64,000 nt of DNA, from assembly GCA_963775425.1 (NCBI GenBank), contig CAVZJB010000012.1, positions 192,001 to 256,000 on the forward strand, in the 5' to 3' direction. Source of the stretch: an uncultured delta proteobacterium. Its GTDB lineage: Bacteria > Myxococcota > UBA727 > VGSZ01. Both the position numbers and the translations under genes were made by a program. Numbering within the stretch: the first letter of the stretch is position 1; the number at the start of each line of letters is the position of its first letter. Positions 53,576-61,093 of this stretch are shown here, piece after piece. The notes under the pieces are model-generated. The model saw only the letters and a program-made list of their open reading frames with translations. It made no database searches and was not told where the DNA came from.

Positions 53576-56500
53576 TCAGCGGCCGCCCGTGGTCTTGCGC
53601 ACGAGCTTGGAGACCACGCGGGCGAAGCGGCGGCCGGCGTCGTCGACGTCCTCGCCGAGGATCTCGACGTAGTGCTTGAAGCAGCGCTCCTTCAACGGCC
53701 GCACCGCAACCTGCGCCGTCAGCGTGCCGCCGCGCTCGAGGCGGTTCGCCAGGGCGCGCAGCGCGGCCGCCGAGCACTCGGTGGGCAGGCCGTCGCTCAC
53801 CATGACGAGGAGCTTGTGCGGGCGGCGTGACCGCCGGGCGGCCACCGCGGCGTGCCAGAGCCCGGCGGCGTCGTTGTTGCCGCCCGAGGCTTGCAGCGCA
53901 TGGGCGGCGCAGCGCTCGGCGTCGCCGGCGTCGTAGATGACGCTGCTCGTGAAGCCGAAGATGCGCACGTCGACGCCGCGGTTCCCGCGCGCCGCCTCCG
54001 CCAGCGACGTCGCGAAGACGCGCGCCTTGTCCATGCTCCTGTCGCTGGCCATGGAGCCCGAGCAATCGACGACGAGCCCGACGAACAGGTCGGCGGCCGG
54101 CACCGGCGTCCTCCGGACGAGGAGGCGCGGATCCATCCTGGCGATCGCGCTCGCGAGCCCCTGGCGGTCGAGGCTGCGGCCGCTCAAGCGGCGCCGCTCC
54201 ACGACGACGCGCGTGCCGAGCTCGTCGAGCGCGCTGCGGAGGGCGCGCGTGGCGCGCCGGCCCTGCGCGGCGAGCGCCCTGTGCTCCTCGGGCCGGTGCG
54301 CGAGCGGGACGATCTGATCGATGACGTCGAAGCGCTCGTCGGGGCCGTCGTTCCACTTGGGGTGCTCGATGCGCGGGGGGGCCCGGCTCTTGTCGCGATC
54401 GAGCTCGCGCTGGAGCTCGTCGGGGGAGAAGCCCTCCTCCCGCATCTCTTCTTCGCCGGTCTCCATGGTCTCGTGGATACCGAAGGTCTCGAGGATGCCC
54501 GTCTCGTCGCCGAAGATGCGGTGGAGCTCGCGGGCGATGTCCAGGAGCGCGTCCATCTTCGACGCGCGAAAGGCGCGCCCGGAGAAGAGCGCGAGCCCCT
54601 CACGCACCTTGGCGTCGGCGTCGCGCCCGCCGAGCCCTTGTCGCAGCGCACGCATGAAGCGGGCGAAGCTCGTATGCGCGGAGATCTCGGCGAGCAGCCG
54701 CCCGAGCTCGACGTGCACACACCCCCAGCGCCGCCCGGGGAAGAGCCGCACGCGGGTGAGCACCCGCGCGGCGTGGGGCCCGAGCGTGCGCAGGAGGTCC
54801 TCGAGGAAGACGTCGCGCGCGACGTGTTGGAAGGCGTAGCTGGCGAGCACCTTGAGGGAGTCGCCGTACACGTCGCTCTGCGCGCGGAGGTTCCGCTCGA
54901 GGTGCTCGTCGGCGACGAGGTTCAACAGGCCCGCGATCTTCTCCTTTTGCGCCTGCTCCCAGCACTCCCTGCCCAGCGCGTCGGCGTGGTAGAGGTGATG
55001 GCCGACCTCGTGCACCATCAGCCCGCGTACGACGTCGTCACCGCCGCGCTCGCCGCGCAACAGTGGCATGGGGTTGATGAAGATGCGGGGCTGGTGAAGG
55101 CGCGTGTAGCCGAGCGCGTCGTGGATGAATTCCACGCCCACGGGCTTGCCGAGGAGCGTGCGCGCCTGGCGCACGCCCCATCGCACCGCTTCGCGCAGCT
55201 CGTCCATTCGCGGATCGTCGAACCAGCGCGCGCGCCGAAGGACGGCGAACAGGGCGGCGGCCTCCTCGGCGTCCACGCCGCCCTTGAGCACGTGGAGCGC
55301 CACCGCCGCCGCGACGTCGTCGTCGAGGAGCCGCTTGTCCATGAGCGACTCGAGCGCGGCGTCGAGCGCGGCGTCGCCGGCGACGCCGGCGGCCTCGACG
55401 ACCTCGCGCCACAGCTCGGCGGGCACGGCGTCGCGCAGCTTCTTTTCGTGGCGCGGCTCGGGCGGCGAGAGCGCGCACGAGACGACGACCGGGAGCACGA
55501 GGTCACCGTCGTCGAGGAGCGCCGCGGCCACCTCGGCGCGCAGGGCGGGCTCGCGGTCGTCGCCGGCTTCGAGGAACGCGCGGAGGGCGCGCCGCGCCGC
55601 GACGTGCTCGTGCTCGTGCTCGTGCGCGCCGTCGCGTCGCCGGCCGTCGTGCAGCGACGACAGCAGCGACCACACGGCCTTGGTGTACGCGGCGGGGTGC
55701 GGGGAGCGGACGAGCTCGAGCGCGAACGTGCGCGGCGGGACGTGCGCGGAGAGCGCGGCGACGTCGTCGGCGTCGAGCCAGGTGCCGCGGGCGTCGCGGG
55801 GGGCGCAGGCGGCGGCGAGGGCGACCTTGTGCTCGCCGAGCCGCAGCGCGACGCGGAAGCGGACCTCGGGGCGGACCTCGTCGCGCAGGAGGCGGCGGGA
55901 GTCCTCGTCGTCGAAGATGGCGCGCTCGATGACGGCGCGGGCGCACAGCGGGAGATCCGCGCTCGCGAGCGCGTCGACGACGACGCGGCGGCCGGCGGGG
56001 CCCGCGGCGCCGAGCTCGTCGACGGCGGCGCGAGCGACGTGGGCGTCGTGCAATCGCAGCCGGGCGGCGGCGACGTCGACGGGGGCGCGCGGCGGCGGCG
56101 GCGGCGCGGGCGGGAACGCGACGGCGGCGCCGAGGCGCGCGCGCACGTCGGGCTCGAGCGGCGGCGGCCTGACCGCGAGCAGGCGATCGCGGACGGCCTC
56201 GACGAAGCCCTCGGCCTTGCCGCTCGCGTGCGCGAGCGCGACGAGATCGGCGGCGAGGCGCCGGAGCGCGCGGGCGCCGTTGAAGAGCGAGGAGCCCGCG
56301 ACGGGCGGGCGGGGCTCGGCCTCGCGCAGGAGGACGGCGGCGACGACCTCGGCGAGCTTGTCGTCGAGCTTGTCGAGGAGCGCCCGCCGCTGATAGGTCC
56401 ACGCGCGCACCACCTCGACGAGCGCGCGCATGAGCTTCCATGACAAAAGCGGCGCCGGCAACGCGAGCGCGAGGTCGACGACGCCGCGCAGGCCGCCCGG

Positions 56501-58795
56501 GGCCGTGCGGCAGTGCTGCTCGAAGCGGACGGCGTGGCCGGCGTCGTGTTGCACCCAGGCGGTGGCGAGGAGGGGCAGATCGCGCCGCGTGTCCTCGTCG
56601 AGGAGCGTGGCGTCGATGGCGGCGAGGAAGGGCGGCACCTCGCGCACGAGGCCCTGGAACGCCTCGGCGACGACGTGGGGCGGGTCGTGGCACGCGAGGA
56701 GCGCGGCGCTCAGCCGCGCGCTCGGTGACGTCGGGCGCTTGCGGGCCGCGCGCTCGCTGAGCGCGTCGACGAGGCCGGTGAGCGGCTCGCGCAAGAACAG
56801 CGAAGCCACGAGCGGCACCTCGGCGTCGGGGCACTGCACGAGCGTGGCGGCGACGCCTTCGGGGCACGCGCGCGGCGCGTTGTGAACCGAGCTGCGCCGC
56901 GGCGCCGCCCAGGCGCGCGCCGCCGCGTGGTCGGTCGCGGAGAGGGCCTCGGCCCAGGCGCGCTCGACGTCGACGGGGAGCACGGTGGCGCGCAGGAGCG
57001 TCACGAGCGCTCCAAGCGGGTCCGCGTCGCGCTCGTCGTCGGTGTGCGGGGCGTCGGCGGCGGTGCCGGCCGCGTCGAGGTCGCGGGAGCGTTCGGCGAG
57101 GGCGGCGACGGCGGCGGCGATGAGCGTCGGGGGGAACGCGCGCAGGACGGCGTCGCGGGTCGCGGAGGCAACGGTCGCCGCGCCCGGGCCGGACGCCACG
57201 CCGGACGTTGCCCCGTCGACGCGGGCCGGCGTCGCCGTGGCGGGGCTTACCGCCGACGTCGCGCTCGCCGGTGGCCGCGCGGCGGCGAGGCCGACGACGG
57301 CGCTCAGGGTGCGCAGCGCGGCGTCGTCGGAGAGCTGTCCGGCGAGGACGCCGGCGTTCCTCTCCAGGCGGCGCGCCGCGAGCTCGCCGACGTCGTCGAG
57401 CGCGCGGCTGTCGTCGAGGAGGAGCGCCAACGCTTGCTCGACGACGCCGGGGCGGCCGCCCTTCTCGGCGTCCGCGAGCGAGAACGCCCCGTCGGCGGGG
57501 AGCGTCACGCACAGCGCGGCGACGAGCTCGGGCGTGAGCCGCGCGCGCATCCCGATGATCACCGCGCGCGCGAGCGCGCGATAGGCCTCCCGATCGGCGG
57601 GGCTCCGCGGCGCCAGCGAGAGCAGCGCCGTCGACGGCGCGCGCCAGAACGCGGCGGCGACGTCGGCGGCGGGGATCACCTCGCGCAGCTTCTGGTACGG
57701 GGCGTCGAACAGGAGGCGCAGCGCGCCCGCCACGAGCTCCGCGTCGAGCGCGCCGGCGTCGTCGTTGAGGGCGCCGCGGGTGACGAGGCCCTTGAGCATC
57801 ACGGCCTTGCCCGCGCCGAGATCGAGGTCGACGAGCGCGCGCAGCGCCGCCCGCCGCCGCCCCGCGTCCGCCTCGAGCAGCAGCAGCATCGGCGCCGACA
57901 GCGCGCAGAGCGCGAGCATGCGCGGCGTGCTCTCCCCCGTCGTCAGCATCACCTGTGCGGCGCACACCGCGAAGCGCCGGTGCGCCGGATCCTTGAGCGT
58001 CAACGCGCGCTTGGCGGCGAGCAGCTCGTCGACGATGGGCGCCTCGTCGCTCAGCCGGCGCTCCCCCGGCGGCGGCGGCGGGTGGCGCCACAGCTCGAGG
58101 AGGATGTCCGCGAGCGGGTCGGTGTGGACGAGGGACGTGAGGTACTTCGTGATCGCCTCGGGCGTCATCAGGTGCGCGTCGGCGACCGGGGGGAACGGGA
58201 TGGCCGCCAGCACGTCCGCGCTCCTGGCGGCGAACGGGACGCGGCGCAGCCGCGCGTGCACCTCGACAACGTCGAGCAGCCCGAGCCGGCGGGCGTTCAA
58301 GAGCGCGCAGGCCACCGCGCCGTCGGCGGCGCGCGCGTCGAGCAGCGCGCGCACGTCGTCGGCGTGCTCGGGGTCTGCGAGGAGCAGCGCCGCGTGCGCG
58401 GGCGGCGTGCGCACCGGGTTCGCGTCGGCCACCGACGCCAGCGCGGCGCGGCGCACGTCGCGGCGGCGATGGAAGAGCGCGCAGGAAAACGGGGTGGGGT
58501 CGCTGGTGCAGCACGCGGCGAGCGCGGCGACGGCCGCGGCGCGCACGTCCTTGTGGTTGTCGTCGAGGCGCTCGACCACCGCGCGCAGCCCCGGCTTGCC
58601 CGCGCAGCCGCTGAGCGCGCGCACCGCCGCGGCGCGCACCTTGGGCGAGCGGTGCAGCGTCGCGCGCGCCACCGCCGCGCCGAACACGGCGCGCCTGGGC
58701 AGCGTCACCGTCAGCAGCTCGTCGAGGAGCGCCGCGAGGTCCGCCGCGTCGTGGCCCTCGTCGTGGAGGGCGTCCCAGAGCCGGACGTCGTGCAC
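53576..58795 (-). CDS. 1739-aa protein: HEAT-like alpha-solenoid + HExxH metallopeptidase-like region + C-terminal vWA domain
   Basis: VRAAAVRAL, LDDNHKDVRAAAVAAL, DVRRAAL (HEAT-like); RIFINP..GLMVHEVGHHLYH..LNLVADEHLE; SGRSLD; LVVDCSGSM (MIDAS), GGNNDA, MVSDGLP. Confidence 0.85.
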   Translation of the reverse strand: MHDVRLWDALHDEGHDAADLAALLDELLTVTLPRRAVFGAAVARATLHRSPKVRAAAVRALSGCAGKPGLRAVVERLDDNHKDVRAAAVAALAACCTSDPTPFSCALFHRRRDVRRAALASVADANPVRTPPAHAALLLADPEHADDVRALLDARAADGAVACALLNARRLGLLDVVEVHARLRRVPFAARSADVLAAIPFPPVADAHLMTPEAITKYLTSLVHTDPLADILLELWRHPPPPPGERRLSDEAPIVDELLAAKRALTLKDPAHRRFAVCAAQVMLTTGESTPRMLALCALSAPMLLLLEADAGRRRAALRALVDLDLGAGKAVMLKGLVTRGALNDDAGALDAELVAGALRLLFDAPYQKLREVIPAADVAAAFWRAPSTALLSLAPRSPADREAYRALARAVIIGMRARLTPELVAALCVTLPADGAFSLADAEKGGRPGVVEQALALLLDDSRALDDVGELAARRLERNAGVLAGQLSDDAALRTLSAVVGLAAARPPASATSAVSPATATPARVDGATSGVASGPGAATVASATRDAVLRAFPPTLIAAAVAALAERSRDLDAAGTAADAPHTDDERDADPLGALVTLLRATVLPVDVERAWAEALSATDHAAARAWAAPRRSSVHNAPRACPEGVAATLVQCPDAEVPLVASLFLREPLTGLVDALSERAARKRPTSPSARLSAALLACHDPPHVVAEAFQGLVREVPPFLAAIDATLLDEDTRRDLPLLATAWVQHDAGHAVRFEQHCRTAPGGLRGVVDLALALPAPLLSWKLMRALVEVVRAWTYQRRALLDKLDDKLAEVVAAVLLREAEPRPPVAGSSLFNGARALRRLAADLVALAHASGKAEGFVEAVRDRLLAVRPPPLEPDVRARLGAAVAFPPAPPPPPRAPVDVAAARLRLHDAHVARAAVDELGAAGPAGRRVVVDALASADLPLCARAVIERAIFDDEDSRRLLRDEVRPEVRFRVALRLGEHKVALAAACAPRDARGTWLDADDVAALSAHVPPRTFALELVRSPHPAAYTKAVWSLLSSLHDGRRRDGAHEHEHEHVAARRALRAFLEAGDDREPALRAEVAAALLDDGDLVLPVVVSCALSPPEPRHEKKLRDAVPAELWREVVEAAGVAGDAALDAALESLMDKRLLDDDVAAAVALHVLKGGVDAEEAAALFAVLRRARWFDDPRMDELREAVRWGVRQARTLLGKPVGVEFIHDALGYTRLHQPRIFINPMPLLRGERGGDDVVRGLMVHEVGHHLYHADALGRECWEQAQKEKIAGLLNLVADEHLERNLRAQSDVYGDSLKVLASYAFQHVARDVFLEDLLRTLGPHAARVLTRVRLFPGRRWGCVHVELGRLLAEISAHTSFARFMRALRQGLGGRDADAKVREGLALFSGRAFRASKMDALLDIARELHRIFGDETGILETFGIHETMETGEEEMREEGFSPDELQRELDRDKSRAPPRIEHPKWNDGPDERFDVIDQIVPLAHRPEEHRALAAQGRRATRALRSALDELGTRVVVERRRLSGRSLDRQGLASAIARMDPRLLVRRTPVPAADLFVGLVVDCSGSMASDRSMDKARVFATSLAEAARGNRGVDVRIFGFTSSVIYDAGDAERCAAHALQASGGNNDAAGLWHAAVAARRSRRPHKLLVMVSDGLPTECSAAALRALANRLERGGTLTAQVAVRPLKERCFKHYVEILGEDVDDAGRRFARVVSKLVRKTTGGR

Positions 58796-58822
58796 GAGCG
58801 GTTCTACCGCGACTCCGTCCCG

Positions 58823-59510
58823 GGTGACGACGGCGGCGCGTCCGCCGTGATGACGAAAGAGAGACCCGCTCCACGAGGAGCCGTGCGCGGCGCCGAAGCG
58901 AAGGCGAACCCCACGTTCCGGACCGGCGCGTCATCGGCCGGCCCTTCATCGGGCTTCGCGTTCCCGTCGGCGCCGCAACCGTCGCGCGCGTCGAGCCATC
59001 GACTGCACGAGTCGTCACCGCGCCCGTCCTCGAGAGGAAAGTGCGGCGGCCCGTCGACGCTCCCTGATGGTGTGCCTGCCGCCGCGAAGGAGGCAGGCGC
59101 GGGTGTGTCGGGCTCCGCGCCGCGGCCGCTCCCATCCGAGAGGCCGTCGTGCCGGCGCGGTGTGCCCCGAGAAACCTGGTGGGTCATCCGGGGCGGCGTC
59201 TCAGCTCGACCCGGATGCGCGGCTTGCGGCCGTCGTCAGCGGGTCTTTGTCGCGTCGACGTGCGTTCGCGGGTCGACGAGACGAGGCGAGCGGGAGTCCG
59301 GCGTACAGACGTACCGATCGCCCAGAAAAATCCTGCCTTCGTTCAACTGCATGCCCACTCCTTTCCCGTCGCCATGACGTCCCCGTCGGGCAGACCCATT
59401 GAAGCACATGCCCCCGCCGAAGGCGAGAGTCTCCTGAGACGGCGCTCACGCCGGGTCCATTCAGCCGGATCAGCGACCGGAGGGAGCGGCCGCGCTTGAT
59501 CGGGAGCGTC
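58823..59510. ncRNA. Candidate large structured ncRNA (~690 nt), family unknown
   Basis: Intergenic, with nested long-range helices (59121-59133/59482-59494 13 bp; 59056-59064/59502-59510 9 bp; 58823-58831/59011-59019 9 bp; 58887-58896/58967-58976 10 bp) and loop pseudoknots; strand not resolved. Confidence 0.6.
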
Positions 59511-59571
59511 ACGTGACCCCGCGCGCACGCGTCGACGCTCGAGGCACGAGCCGCCGCAGTAGGTTGCGGCT

Positions 59572-60348
59572 GTGATCGCCCGCGTGGCCCTCGTCGCCGT
59601 CATCGGCATCGCCTGCGGGACCGGCGGGTGCACGGCCACGCGCCAAATCACGCCGTGGTTGCGCGCGTCGACGACCACGCACTTCGAGCGCGGCTTCATC
59701 GCCGAGTCGGGCGGCGTCGGCCCCTATGACACGGGCAAGGTCGAGCGCTACGACGGCCAAGCCTGGGTGCCCCTCCACGTCGACGACATGCGCGCGTTCG
59801 GCTTCGCCGGCGGCAGCCGCGCCGTCGTCGGCACCACGCTCCTGCGGCGGGACGGGCCGCCGGTGTCGATCCCGTGCGCCCAGGACCTGCGCGCCACCCC
59901 GGACGACGCGGGGCTCGTGTGCGTCGAGATCTTCGGTCGCACCCTGGCGTCGTGGGAGCACGGCGCCACCAACACCGTCCGCGTCACGCAGCTCGACGCG
60001 GACGGACGCGTGCTCGGCACCCGCACGGTCGCGGCGCCGGTGGAGGTGCCCGCCGGCGCACCCGTCGAAGAGGACGCGAGCGCGTCGTTCCTCGGCTTCG
60101 ACGGCGATGGTCTCTGGTTCTCCGTGCTGCGCACCGACGCCCGGACGAGCTTCGCGTCCGGCGCCCCGCTCCGCTGCCAGGGCTTCGTCCTCGGCAAAGA
60201 CGATCGCTGGAGGGCGGCCGCGACGCTGTCGACCACCGCCGACGCGCTGTGGCGCTGCAACTTCGCGCGCCCCTGGAACCAGGCGCTCGGCACGCGCATC
60301 GATCCCGGCAAGGTCCGCCGCGACGCGCGGGGGGAGCCGCACGTCTAG
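59572..60348 (+). CDS. Hypothetical exported protein/lipoprotein
   Basis: Signal peptide with lipobox-like GIAC/TGGC, high GC3, TAGGTT 6 nt upstream of GTG. Confidence 0.7.
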   Translation: MIARVALVAVIGIACGTGGCTATRQITPWLRASTTTHFERGFIAESGGVGPYDTGKVERYDGQAWVPLHVDDMRAFGFAGGSRAVVGTTLLRRDGPPVSIPCAQDLRATPDDAGLVCVEIFGRTLASWEHGATNTVRVTQLDADGRVLGTRTVAAPVEVPAGAPVEEDASASFLGFDGDGLWFSVLRTDARTSFASGAPLRCQGFVLGKDDRWRAAATLSTTADALWRCNFARPWNQALGTRIDPGKVRRDARGEPHV

Positions 60349-60373
60349 CCGGCCACGCCGGTCGCCACGCCGC

Positions 60374-61093
60374 TCACCTCCGCCAGGACCGCAGCGCGCG
60401 CAGCGGGTTCATCGGCACGCCGTGCTTGCGCACCTCGAAGTGCACGTGGGAGCCCGTCGAGCGACCGGTGCTGCCGACGAGCGCGACGGCGTCGCCCGCG
60501 CTGACCTCGGCGCCGCGCTCCACCAGGAGCGCGGACGCATGGCAGTAGCGGCTGCGCGTTCCGTCGGCCTGCTCGATCTCCACCATGAAGCCGTAGCCGC
60601 CGTCGTAGGTCGCCTGCACGACGCGGCCGGCGGCGACGGCGTGGATGGTGGCGCCCGTGGGCGCGCCGACGTCGATGCCCGTGTGCGTGGAGAGCCCGCC
60701 GCCGAGCGGATCCACGCGCACGCCGTAGCCGCTCGTGATGTGCGCCCCCGGCGCGTCGACGAGGAGCGACACCAGGCCGCCGTCGCGAACGCCGCCGGCG
60801 CGGCGCTCGTGCGCGGCCTCGTGGCGCGCGTCCCGCTCCCAACTGTGCAGCGCGCTCGCCGACGGGAAGCCGTATTGCCGCGCGACGGCGTCGTCGTTGC
60901 GCTCGGTGTTCACCTTGCGCGCGGCCTCGTACTGGTCCCACAGGTCCGGCCGCCCGACGGGCAGCACGGGGAACGTCACCGTTGCGCCGCCGGCAGCCGG
61001 CGCCGCCGCGCGCGGGGTGGCGGCCGCGCGCTCCGCGGCGCCGGCGACGACGGCGGCGGCGAGGAGCATCGAGGCGACAAATCCGGCGCGCAT
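60374..61093 (-). CDS. M23 family metallopeptidase
   Basis: Signal peptide; ITSGYGVRVDP, HTGID, YCH, GSTGRSTGSHVHFEVR. Confidence 0.92.
   Translation of the reverse strand: MRAGFVASMLLAAAVVAGAAERAAATPRAAAPAAGGATVTFPVLPVGRPDLWDQYEAARKVNTERNDDAVARQYGFPSASALHSWERDARHEAAHERRAGGVRDGGLVSLLVDAPGAHITSGYGVRVDPLGGGLSTHTGIDVGAPTGATIHAVAAGRVVQATYDGGYGFMVEIEQADGTRSRYCHASALLVERGAEVSAGDAVALVGSTGRSTGSHVHFEVRKHGVPMNPLRALRSWRR

What the first reader, a model, noticed from the sequence alone, without database searches (positions are those of the whole stretch)
58823..59510. Candidate novel large ncRNA: ~690 nt, two multibranch domains, each with a loop pseudoknot
Seen in a 776-nt gap between divergent genes. 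Domain A: GACGCTCCC(t)GAT 59056-68 with ATCGGGAGCGTC 59499-510; hairpin GCCTGCC/GGCAGGC ~59074-98; CGCGGCCGCTCCC(a)TCCG 59121-38 with 59478-94; CCGGCG 59152-57 with 59449-54; hairpin CATCCGGG 59185-92/CCCGGATG 59210-17, whose loop CGTCTCAG 59197-204 complements CTGAGACG 59434-41 (pseudoknot); GGGTCT 59241-46/AGACCC 59392-97; CGTCGAC/GTCGACG 59253-78 capped by a UUCG-containing loop; GGCGA(g)CGGGA 59285-95/TCCCGTCGCC 59364-73. Domain B: 58823-31/59011-19, 58882-86/59005-09, 58887-96/58967-76, 58898-903/58954-59, plus GATGACG 58849-55 with loop CGTCATC 58929-35. Alternative cross-domain pairs (58825-34/59228-37; 58862-70/59238-46) hint at switching. Inference: a ribozyme-sized structured RNA not matching any class I can recognise. 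Caveats: high GC inflates chance pairing, and G-U patterns do not settle the strand.
Basis: partly seen in the sequence, partly recalled or inferred. Interest (0 to 1): 0.85.

Follow-up and report, generated by a model that had tools for sequence, protein, structure and literature searches.

The report
Conserved myxobacterial RNA, opposite strand

Summary
The proposed plus-strand fold of two closed domains does not hold. Both closing helices of domain A use 59478-59510. That stretch lies in or beside one copy of a 30-nt REP-like repeat with 217 copies at 149 loci in this genome, and it sits upstream of a promoter. Their partners overlap a hairpin that pairs locally.

What is real is a single-copy unit on the MINUS strand:
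- an ECF-sigma-like promoter (59438-59463)
- a Shine-Dalgarno site, ATG and 38-codon ORF (59236-59364)
- a 118-nt core (59045-59162), made of a 46-nt hairpin with a nearly invariant top plus an enclosing helix
- an intrinsic terminator (58855-58877)

A covariance model of the core finds one copy each in 9 Myxococcota genomes and 1 metagenome contig, always between different genes. In the 10-sequence alignment 97% of cells pair and 14 of 27 pairs show compensatory changes. G-U counts favour the minus strand.

Rfam 15 has no match. Folding z-scores alone are unremarkable. Function is unknown. My best guess is a stress-induced regulatory or dual-function RNA. The scan had not found it on other DNA.

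The parts
59468..59501 (+). One copy of a genome-wide 30-nt REP-like palindromic repeat (unit 59468-59497 plus the first 4 nt of a next unit). It lies just upstream of the -35 of the minus-strand unit and is not part of the conserved RNA.
   Evidence: BLAST of the gap against its own genome gives 85 matches, nearly all to this stretch. 217 copies with at most 5 substitutions lie at 149 loci, many in tandem arrays of period 29-31. The consensus of 118 single copies shows no conservation in the flanks. 0 of 5 other carrier genomes hold the repeat core with at most 2 mismatches.
59438..59463 (-). ECF-sigma-like promoter: TGAAT (59459-59463), an 18-nt spacer, then GTC (59438-59440). Predicted start near 59430 (inferred).
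   Evidence: TGAAT-N18-GT[TC] is present 99-199 nt upstream of the ATG in 7 of 7 copies from family f1 plus the metagenome contig. The sigma-70 scan found 0 promoters here.
59411..59427 (-). Small hairpin at the predicted 5' end of the transcript.
   Evidence: Read directly from the sequence. g4 and metagenome copies have a hairpin of other sequence at the same place. Seen by eye only, not tested statistically.
59236..59364 (-). Shine-Dalgarno AAAGGAG (59358-59364), ATG (59350-59352) and a 38-codon ORF ending in TGA (59236-59238).
   Evidence: An SD plus ATG is present in 7 of 7 f1 and metagenome copies. The ORFs are 38-83 codons and all end in TGA. Their GC3 is 0.53-0.76, about the same as bulk GC, so they lack the codon bias of real genes. 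The peptides are alike only in the first few residues and a short V/L-D-A/V-D patch. No Pfam-style family was found in NCBIfam. No SD/ORF was found by my pattern search upstream of the core in the f10 and f20 copies.
59185..59217 (-).
   Evidence: Perfect 8-bp stem. Homologues have a hairpin of unrelated sequence here. DNA contigs of runs X3 and X4 cover 59186-59255 with 4 differences.
59115..59160 (-). Hairpin D. An outer 8-bp stem (59153-60 with 59115-22), an internal loop, an inner stem and a hexaloop. The apical 25 nt (59123-59147) are almost invariant.
   Evidence: 86-88% identity over 50 nt to three genomes of another genus. In the 10-sequence alignment, 5 of 8 outer-stem pairs and 2 of 8 inner pairs have compensatory double changes.
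59045..59162 (-). Covariance-model core: hairpin D plus helix P2 (59107-59113 with 59049-59058), which encloses a variable hairpin (59074-59098).
   Evidence: Model R1 scores the window at 96.3 bits and non-training homologues at 48.7-69.6 bits over the full model length. 97.0% of 266 cells pair, against 40-54% in the slid controls. 14 of 27 pairs change on both sides, and 0 of 500 shuffles reach the observed values.
58995..59010 (-). Conserved block b6.
   Evidence: It aligns with a near-identical block in the g4, G009 and G057 copies. An RNA-library contig (X1) and DNA contigs (X3, X4) cover 58946-59011 with 6-8 differences.
58887..58976 (-). Long imperfect hairpin (arms 58887-58912 and 58951-58976, 85% complementary) enclosing a small hairpin (58923-58941).
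   Evidence: A similar layout is visible by eye in the g4 and G112 copies. However, a model built from those four did NOT find the window's, the metagenome's, or the G001, G009 or G057 copy at E<=1. Conservation of this part is therefore unproven.
58855..58877 (-). Intrinsic-terminator-like hairpin plus a T-rich tail, and the predicted 3' end of the RNA (about 575 nt in all).
   Evidence: It is the only terminator-like site in 58600-59700, on the minus strand, against 0.2 +/- 0.5 expected. Hairpin-plus-T-run terminators lie at the matching end of the G008, G010, metagenome and G001 copies.

Best explanation
The gap holds a stand-alone, single-copy RNA gene on the minus strand, about 575 nt long, running from roughly 59430 to 58855. 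It belongs to an apparently undescribed RNA family found patchily in large-genome Myxococcota.

Shown:
- A 118-nt core (hairpin D plus helix P2) is conserved, with compensatory base-pair changes.
- Each genome has one copy, always between different neighbouring genes.
- In the window's family the unit has a conserved ECF-type promoter, an SD/ATG with a short ORF of poorly conserved sequence, and a terminator.

Inferred: an alternative (ECF) sigma factor switches the RNA on under some envelope or oxidative stress, and it then acts in trans. The nearly invariant top of hairpin D would serve as the docking site for a protein or a target RNA. The 5' short ORF would make it a dual-function RNA, or would simply tie its stability to translation.

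Sub-confidences:
- conserved structured RNA element: 0.85
- minus strand, own transcription unit: 0.75
- trans-acting stress-induced regulator: 0.35
For: Non-coding gap.

Homologues: 3 genomes by BLAST; 1 real homologue among 4 metagenome pattern hits; model R1 hits in 8 of 151 phylum genomes and 6 of 38 class genomes. That makes 9 distinct genomes, each with one full-length hit.

Covariation: 14 of 27 pairs change on both sides, 97% of cells pair against 40-54% when slid, and 0 of 500 shuffles reach the observed values.

Strand: the minus reading gives 13 G-U and 8 mismatches, the plus reading 5 G-U and 16 mismatches. This includes one U-G pair kept in 7 of 10 sequences. TGAAT-N18-GTY plus SD/ATG is present in 7 of 7 f1 and metagenome copies. 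The only terminator-like site in the region is on the minus strand.

Not protein-coding: the conserved blocks fall in three different frames in three close relatives.

Not a leader of a neighbouring gene: the flanking genes are unrelated, and in two copies the downstream gene is convergent.

The core works without the ORF: the f10 copies have a sigma-70-like promoter and no SD/ORF.

A relative's copy is present in a soil RNA library. One 262-nt contig covers hairpin D with 1 mismatch plus 58946-59010.
Against: - No transcript data exist for this organism. The RNA-library contigs are from a relative, carry no strand information and could be contaminating DNA.
- The alignment used for the pair counts was fitted to the model, which favours the structure and the minus strand. 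Five of the 10 sequences were training sequences.
- Only about 120 nt is shown to covary. A model of the 3' domain failed to find the window's copy, so 'large structured RNA' is not established.
- Folding z-scores for the core are ordinary (-0.87 minus, -1.68 plus).
- Two single-sequence variants in hairpin D give U-G on the plus strand and C-A on the minus strand.
- The ECF assignment rests on a consensus I recall, not on a test.
- The family is found in few genomes: 8 of 151.
Confidence: 0.6

Rival explanations
1. It is simply the mRNA of a small protein (38-83 aa). The conserved hairpins downstream are 3'-UTR stability or processing elements.
For: SD plus ATG is conserved in 7 of 7 f1 and metagenome copies. 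The first residues and a short acidic patch recur. The unit has its own promoter and terminator.
Against: Peptide length and sequence are poorly conserved, and GC3 equals bulk GC (0.53-0.76 against 0.86-1.0 in neighbouring genes). The f10 and f20 copies keep the core without any SD/ORF. The most conserved part is the hairpin, not the ORF. No family was found in NCBIfam.
Confidence: 0.15
2. The conserved hairpins act as DNA, for example as a protein-binding or recombination site, or as a complex regulatory region for the divergent genes. On this view they are not RNA.
For: Watson-Crick complementarity is strand-symmetric. The gap lies between divergent genes. There is no direct transcript evidence for this genome.
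Against: A U-G pair is kept in 7 of 10 sequences and there are 13 G-U pairs in all on one strand. Promoter, SD and terminator are conserved around the element. Neighbouring genes are unrelated in every genome, so it cannot be their shared operator. There is one copy per genome and no transposase nearby in the loci examined.
Confidence: 0.08
3. One reading: a plus-strand RNA of about 690 nt (58823-59510) with two multibranch domains, each with a loop pseudoknot, and ribozyme-like.
For: All listed complementarities exist. The plus-strand MFE has z -3.1 to -3.3. Two hairpin D variants give U-G on the plus strand.
Against: The closing helices use a lineage-specific REP copy and clash with the conserved local hairpin D. 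One pseudoknot arm is the -10 region. Overall G-U counts, promoter, SD and terminator all favour the minus strand. Two of 11 random windows of the genome have a similar z.
Confidence: 0.04
4. The RNA is a cis-leader or a ribonucleoprotein partner of the adjacent 1739-aa HEAT/vWA gene (the linked first-reader idea e1-6379539, by analogy with Ro60 and Y RNA).
For: It is co-oriented with that gene and ends about 60 nt before its start codon.
Against: tblastn with the 1739-aa protein finds nothing (E<=1e-3) in three homologous loci. There the downstream genes are a TPR protein, a cNMP-binding protein or a convergent gene. A terminator separates the RNA from the gene. In Pfam the 1739-aa protein gives only a sub-threshold HEAT_2 hit.
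Confidence: 0.05

Closest known systems
Dual-function small RNAs (SgrS/SgrT, RNAIII/hld, SR1/SR1P; recalled from general knowledge)
   Same: A stand-alone unit with its own promoter and terminator, a short ORF with an SD, and a separate conserved structured part.
   Different: The unit is longer (about 0.6-0.9 kb). The ORF sequence is barely conserved and is absent in two lineages. No target-pairing region has been identified. There is no sequence or Rfam relation.
Sigma-E-dependent regulatory RNAs of enterobacteria (MicA, RybB, MicL; recalled)
   Same: A non-coding regulator placed under an ECF-sigma-type promoter.
   Different: Those are 70-300 nt Hfq-dependent RNAs. Here the sigma factor is unknown, and the promoter class is inferred only from a TGAAT-N18-GTY motif in 7 of 7 copies.
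Large structured bacterial ncRNAs of unknown or recently found function (OLE, GOLLD, HEARO, ROOL, raiA; Rfam families)
   Same: An intergenic RNA of several hundred nucleotides with conserved blocks separated by variable hairpins, and lineage-restricted.
   Different: No Rfam model matches. Only about 120 nt is shown to covary. The 3' domain model failed to generalise.
REP/BIME-type repetitive extragenic palindromes
   Same: The 59468-59501 segment is a 30-nt imperfect palindrome. It has 217 copies at 149 loci, often in tandem.
   Different: This applies only to that segment, not to the conserved RNA. A partner RAYT transposase was not looked for.

Membership tests
Any Rfam 15 family (4227 models) | Covariance-model score at or near the family's gathering threshold | tested here: not met
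   There were 0 hits at E<=1 in window 57500-61000. In four homologous loci the best hits are 20-28 bits against gathering scores of 50-140, all to unrelated families.
New Myxococcota RNA family (this report's model R1) | Full-length match to the hairpin D plus P2 core, with base pairs kept through compensatory change | tested here: met
   The window scores 96.3 bits over positions 1-119 of 119. Five non-training genomes score 48.7-69.6 bits. 14 of 27 pairs show double changes.
New Myxococcota RNA family (3' domain, model R2) | Match to the b7 hairpin plus enclosing helix downstream of the core | tested here: not met
   Only the 4 training sequences score 52-74 bits. The window's expected site was not found at E<=1.
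REP/BIME-like repeats (segment 59468-59501 only) | Short imperfect palindrome in many extragenic copies, singly and in tandem arrays | tested here: met
   217 copies at 149 loci, with arrays of 2-7 units at period 29-31. The flanks are unrelated.
REP/BIME-like repeats (segment 59468-59501 only) | Associated RAYT (Y1 HUH) transposase in the genome | not tested
   No search for a RAYT gene was made.
ECF-sigma (SigR/SigH-like) dependent promoter | An AAT-containing -35 element and a GTT-like -10 element at fixed spacing, as I recall the consensus, together with dependence on the sigma factor | tested here: inconclusive
   TGAAT-N18-GT[TC] is present in 7 of 7 f1 and metagenome copies at 99-199 nt from the ATG. 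The consensus is recalled, not checked. No sigma factor was identified and no transcription data exist.
Ro60/Rsr-Y RNA type RNP with the neighbouring gene | RNA gene conserved next to its protein partner gene | tested here: not met
   The neighbours differ in every locus, and no homologue of the 1739-aa protein was found in three loci.
Type I toxin-antitoxin locus | Small hydrophobic membrane peptide, plus an overlapping antisense RNA | tested here: not met
   The seven peptides are hydrophilic, Ser/Thr/Asp/Arg-rich and have no hydrophobic stretch (by inspection). An antisense RNA was not testable.
Protein-coding gene across the conserved blocks | One reading frame kept across homologues, with GC3 bias | tested here: not met
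   The conserved blocks fall in different frames in G005, G008 and G010. There is no GC3 periodicity.

The most novel reading that the evidence does not exclude
The unit is the founding member of a new class of long (0.6-0.9 kb) structured RNAs of Myxococcota. Its invariant hairpin D top is the active or recognition centre of a ribonucleoprotein or ribozyme-like machine. It is switched on by an alternative sigma factor and coupled to translation of a 5' mini-ORF. Such a regulatory design would have no described counterpart.
Probability: 0.15. Interest if true: 0.8.

Novelty: new variant of a known kind. Interest (0 to 1): 0.6.

Why it matters
Myxococcota have very large genomes, dozens of ECF sigma factors and complex multicellular behaviour, yet very few described regulatory RNAs. 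A covarying, independently transcribed RNA with an invariant hairpin would be a concrete, testable new regulator. It is present in three families, sits behind different promoter types, and has no Rfam match. In my two full-text searches I saw only titles and abstract openings, and none described it.

It is also a useful caution. In 75% GC DNA a hand-drawn multibranch fold, and even a z-score near -3, can arise from repeats and promoter DNA. Only comparative data located the real element and its strand.

Tried and rejected
- Folding z-scores as proof of structure: rejected. Two of 11 random genome windows reach z <= -2.49, and the truly conserved core has z of only -0.87 (minus) and -1.68 (plus).
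- A coding reading of hairpin D: considered because three frames give conserved peptides. Rejected because the frames of successive blocks differ among G005, G008 and G010 and there is no GC3 signal.
- UGA read-through or selenocysteine linking the small ORF to the downstream frame: the ORF and hairpin D share a frame in 3 of the 4 copies first compared. Rejected for the same reasons, and because the f10 copies have no ORF.
- Orthologue-anchored search: the 258-aa neighbour has no homologue in 10 of 10 family genomes. The 1739-aa neighbour has none in three homologous loci.
- BLAST with the g4 copy over 38 genomes of the order: it added only low-complexity coding hits in G003, G007 and G017.
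- Metagenome pattern scan: 3 of 4 hits lacked the stem context and were treated as chance.
- The genome contigs pattern scan returned only the three MAGs already found.
- 3' domain model R2: it found only its own four training sequences. RNAalifold on a MAFFT alignment of that part gave a weak, partly mis-registered consensus.
- A CsrA-type GGA-loop reading of hairpin D: only 5 of 10 loops contain GGA, so it was dropped.
- Public runs: four soil runs hold only 5-6% of the sampled words. When laid, they show short conserved blocks of relatives, not this organism. They give no information on habitat, level or strand, and parts without cover mean nothing.
- Literature: two searches. I saw only titles and abstract openings and read no paper. 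Supplementary files were not consulted and do not bear on any claim here.
- Earlier notes of the scan gave no independent sighting of this RNA.

Full report
**1. What is at the coordinates.**
The window is G000:C12:192001-256000, from an 8.26-Mb, 18-contig genome. Public records of its relatives are titled Myxococcota or Myxococcales MAGs.

The 1739-aa minus-strand ORF (53576-58795) and the 258-aa plus-strand ORF (59572-60348) both show GC3 of 0.94-1.00. Between about 58810 and 59530 no phase stands out, with values of 0.54-0.80. The 776-nt gap is therefore real and non-coding.

Self-complementary words exceed dinucleotide shuffles, for example 14 nine-mers against 4.5 +/- 3.0, reached by 2 of 300 shuffles.

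MFE z-scores are -3.26 (plus) and -2.71 (minus) with 20 shuffles. However, 2 of 11 random 600-nt windows of the same genome reach -2.49 and -2.75. Thermodynamics alone does not mark this region out.

**2. The repeat that closes 'domain A'.**
BLAST of the gap against its own genome gave 85 matches, nearly all to query 673-706, which is window 59468-59501. A search allowing at most 5 substitutions finds 217 copies of the 30-nt unit at 149 loci, on both strands. They often form tandem arrays of 2-7 units with period 29-31, which is not a multiple of three. The flanks of 118 single copies share nothing. This is a REP-like palindromic repeat, a kind the scan has often noted in Myxococcota (those notes are unchecked by me). 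Its core was not found, even with 2 mismatches allowed, in 5 of 5 other genomes that carry the conserved RNA.

The first lies inside this repeat copy and the second overlaps its end. Their left arms, 59121-38 and 59056-68, overlap the conserved hairpin D and helix P2 described below. The 13-nt identity between the repeat core and the 3' half of hairpin D is what creates the 'helix'. Hairpin D has that sequence in genomes without the repeat, so I read the likeness as chance or convergence, and I did not test it further.

**3. A conserved element, and its strand.**
The same BLAST against 40 relatives hit three genomes of another genus (G005, G008, G010) at window 59111-59160, with 86-88% identity over 48-50 nt. 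One of four metagenome pattern hits (L034) is a further homologue.

Around the hit, the three g4 genomes share islands of conservation over about 850 columns, separated by variable stretches with indels that break the reading frame. The same conserved blocks fall in three different frames in the three genomes. Flanking genes are unrelated:
- a glycosyltransferase and a TPR protein in G010
- a Ser/Thr kinase and a cNMP-binding protein in G005
- a convergent gene in L034 and G009
- cydB-like sequence plus a small membrane ORF in G112 and G131

On the strand equivalent to the window's minus strand, the units have four features:
- TGAAT-N18-GTT
- an SD plus ATG 99-199 nt further on
- a short ORF of 38-83 codons, all ending in TGA, with GC3 of 0.53-0.76 (no codon bias)
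- a hairpin plus T-run terminator

The window has the same set: TGAAT at 59459-63, GTC at 59438-40, AAAGGAG at 59358-64, ATG at 59350-52 and TGA at 59236-38. The only terminator-like site in 58600-59700 is on the minus strand at 58877-58855, where 0.2 are expected by chance.

**4. Covariation.**
A covariance model (R1) was built from five sequences covering hairpin D and the enclosing helix P2. It found exactly one full-length match in each of 8 of 151 genomes sampled across the phylum and in 6 of 38 genomes of the class. Together that is nine genomes: G000, G001, G005, G008, G009 and G010 in family f1, G112 and G131 in f10, and G057 in f20. Within f10, 2 of 20 genomes carry it.

In the 10-sequence alignment A5, 97.0% of 266 cells form standard pairs, against 39.7-53.5% when the partners are slid. 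Fourteen of 27 pairs change on both sides. All five measures beat 500 of 500 shuffles. Two caveats apply: the alignment was fitted to the model, and five rows were training rows. Even so, the compensatory changes in the outer stem of hairpin D are visible in unaligned sequence.

Reading the same pairs on each strand gives 13 G-U and 8 mismatches on the minus strand, against 5 G-U and 16 mismatches on the plus strand. One U-G pair is kept in 7 of 10 sequences. Two single-genome variants inside hairpin D point the other way. I weigh the sum, together with promoter, SD and terminator, as favouring the minus strand.

**5. How much of the RNA is structured.**
The core is solid. Upstream, a block near the ORF end (window 59214-59240) and a variable hairpin (59185-59217) recur. 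Downstream, block b6 (58995-59010) recurs.

Contigs of soil runs cover 59114-59162 (1 mismatch) joined to 58946-59010, with 86 other letters replacing 103. They also cover 59186-59257. One of these runs is an RNA library. This shows relatives with conserved blocks and replaced spacers. It hints at transcription, but without strand information and with DNA carry-over possible.

A second model for the 3' hairpin domain found only its four training sequences and not the window. No Rfam family matches the window or four homologous loci.

**6.
Kept:
- a novel structured RNA lies here
- hairpins 59074-98 and 59185-217 sit at structurally conserved positions
- possibly the 58887-58976 hairpin

Rejected:
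- the plus strand
- the 58823 and 59510 ends
- both closing helices of domain A
- the 59152-57 with 59449-54 pair, whose left arm is in the hairpin D stem
- the 59197-204 with 59434-41 pseudoknot, whose right arm is the -10 region
- any link to the HEAT/vWA neighbour

Untested: the ribozyme idea, the other pseudoknot, and 'switching'.

**7. Mechanism.**
Shown: a single-copy, independently positioned unit with promoter, SD/ORF, covarying core and terminator. The core persists in two lineages that have another promoter type (TTGACG-N17-TAMCTT in f10) and no ORF.

Inferred: the RNA itself, rather than the peptide, is the conserved product. In family f1 its synthesis is under an ECF-type sigma factor. 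The motif resembles the SigR/SigH-type consensus as I recall it, and I did not check this. The invariant apical part of hairpin D would be the contact site for a partner. I rate a trans-acting, stress-induced regulatory or dual-function RNA at about 0.35, and the broader claim of a conserved minus-strand structured RNA gene at about 0.75-0.85.

**8. Novelty.**
There is no Rfam 15 match. Nothing turned up in two full-text searches, of which I saw only titles and abstract openings. The scan holds no earlier sighting on other DNA. The kind of thing, a stand-alone structured bacterial RNA with a mini-ORF, is known. The family appears new.

Noticed in passing
G000 genome-wide, e.g. C16:505156-505365, C3:637100-637279, C4:47641-47794; window 59468-59501: A 30-nt REP-like palindromic repeat has 217 copies at 149 loci, with tandem arrays of up to 7 units at period 29, 30 or 31. 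It was not found in five related genomes.
   Followed up: partly
window 59123-59135 versus 59482-59494: The repeat core and the 3' half of the conserved hairpin D share 13 identical bases in inverted orientation. Transcripts carrying the repeat in antisense could in principle pair with hairpin D. It could equally be chance in 75% GC DNA.
   Followed up: no
L013 (G005:C59), about 220-420 nt downstream of its hairpin D: Four tandem copies of a hairpin repeat of about 33 nt, with a different sequence from the G000 repeat, follow the G005 copy of the RNA where the other copies have a terminator.
   Followed up: no
L040 and L041 (G131, G112), about 430-260 nt upstream of the core: A conserved 56-codon hydrophobic ORF follows the end of a cytochrome-bd-subunit-II-like gene. 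It lies just before a conserved sigma-70-like promoter (TTGACG-N17-TAMCTT) that seems to drive the RNA in this lineage.
   Followed up: no
window 59236-59352 and homologous ORFs: All 7 mini-ORFs end in TGA. In 3 of the 4 copies first compared, the frame stays the same from the ORF through hairpin D. I judged this coincidental, but read-through was not excluded experimentally.
   Followed up: partly
window 59572-60348 (+): The 258-aa ORF has strong GC3 bias but no Pfam or NCBIfam family, and no homologue in 10 of 10 genomes of the same family.
   Followed up: partly
window 53576-58795 (-): The 1739-aa protein gives only a sub-threshold HEAT_2 hit in Pfam (23 bits against a cut-off of 27.7) and nothing in NCBIfam. 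The terminator of the RNA lies about 60 nt before its GTG start, so its own promoter is not evident.
   Followed up: no
L034 and L039, downstream of the RNA: In the metagenome contig and in G009 the RNA unit is followed by a convergent gene whose ends are alike in both. By eye it looks like the C-terminus of a Lon-type protease; I ran no search on it. This is the only shared neighbour seen.
   Followed up: no
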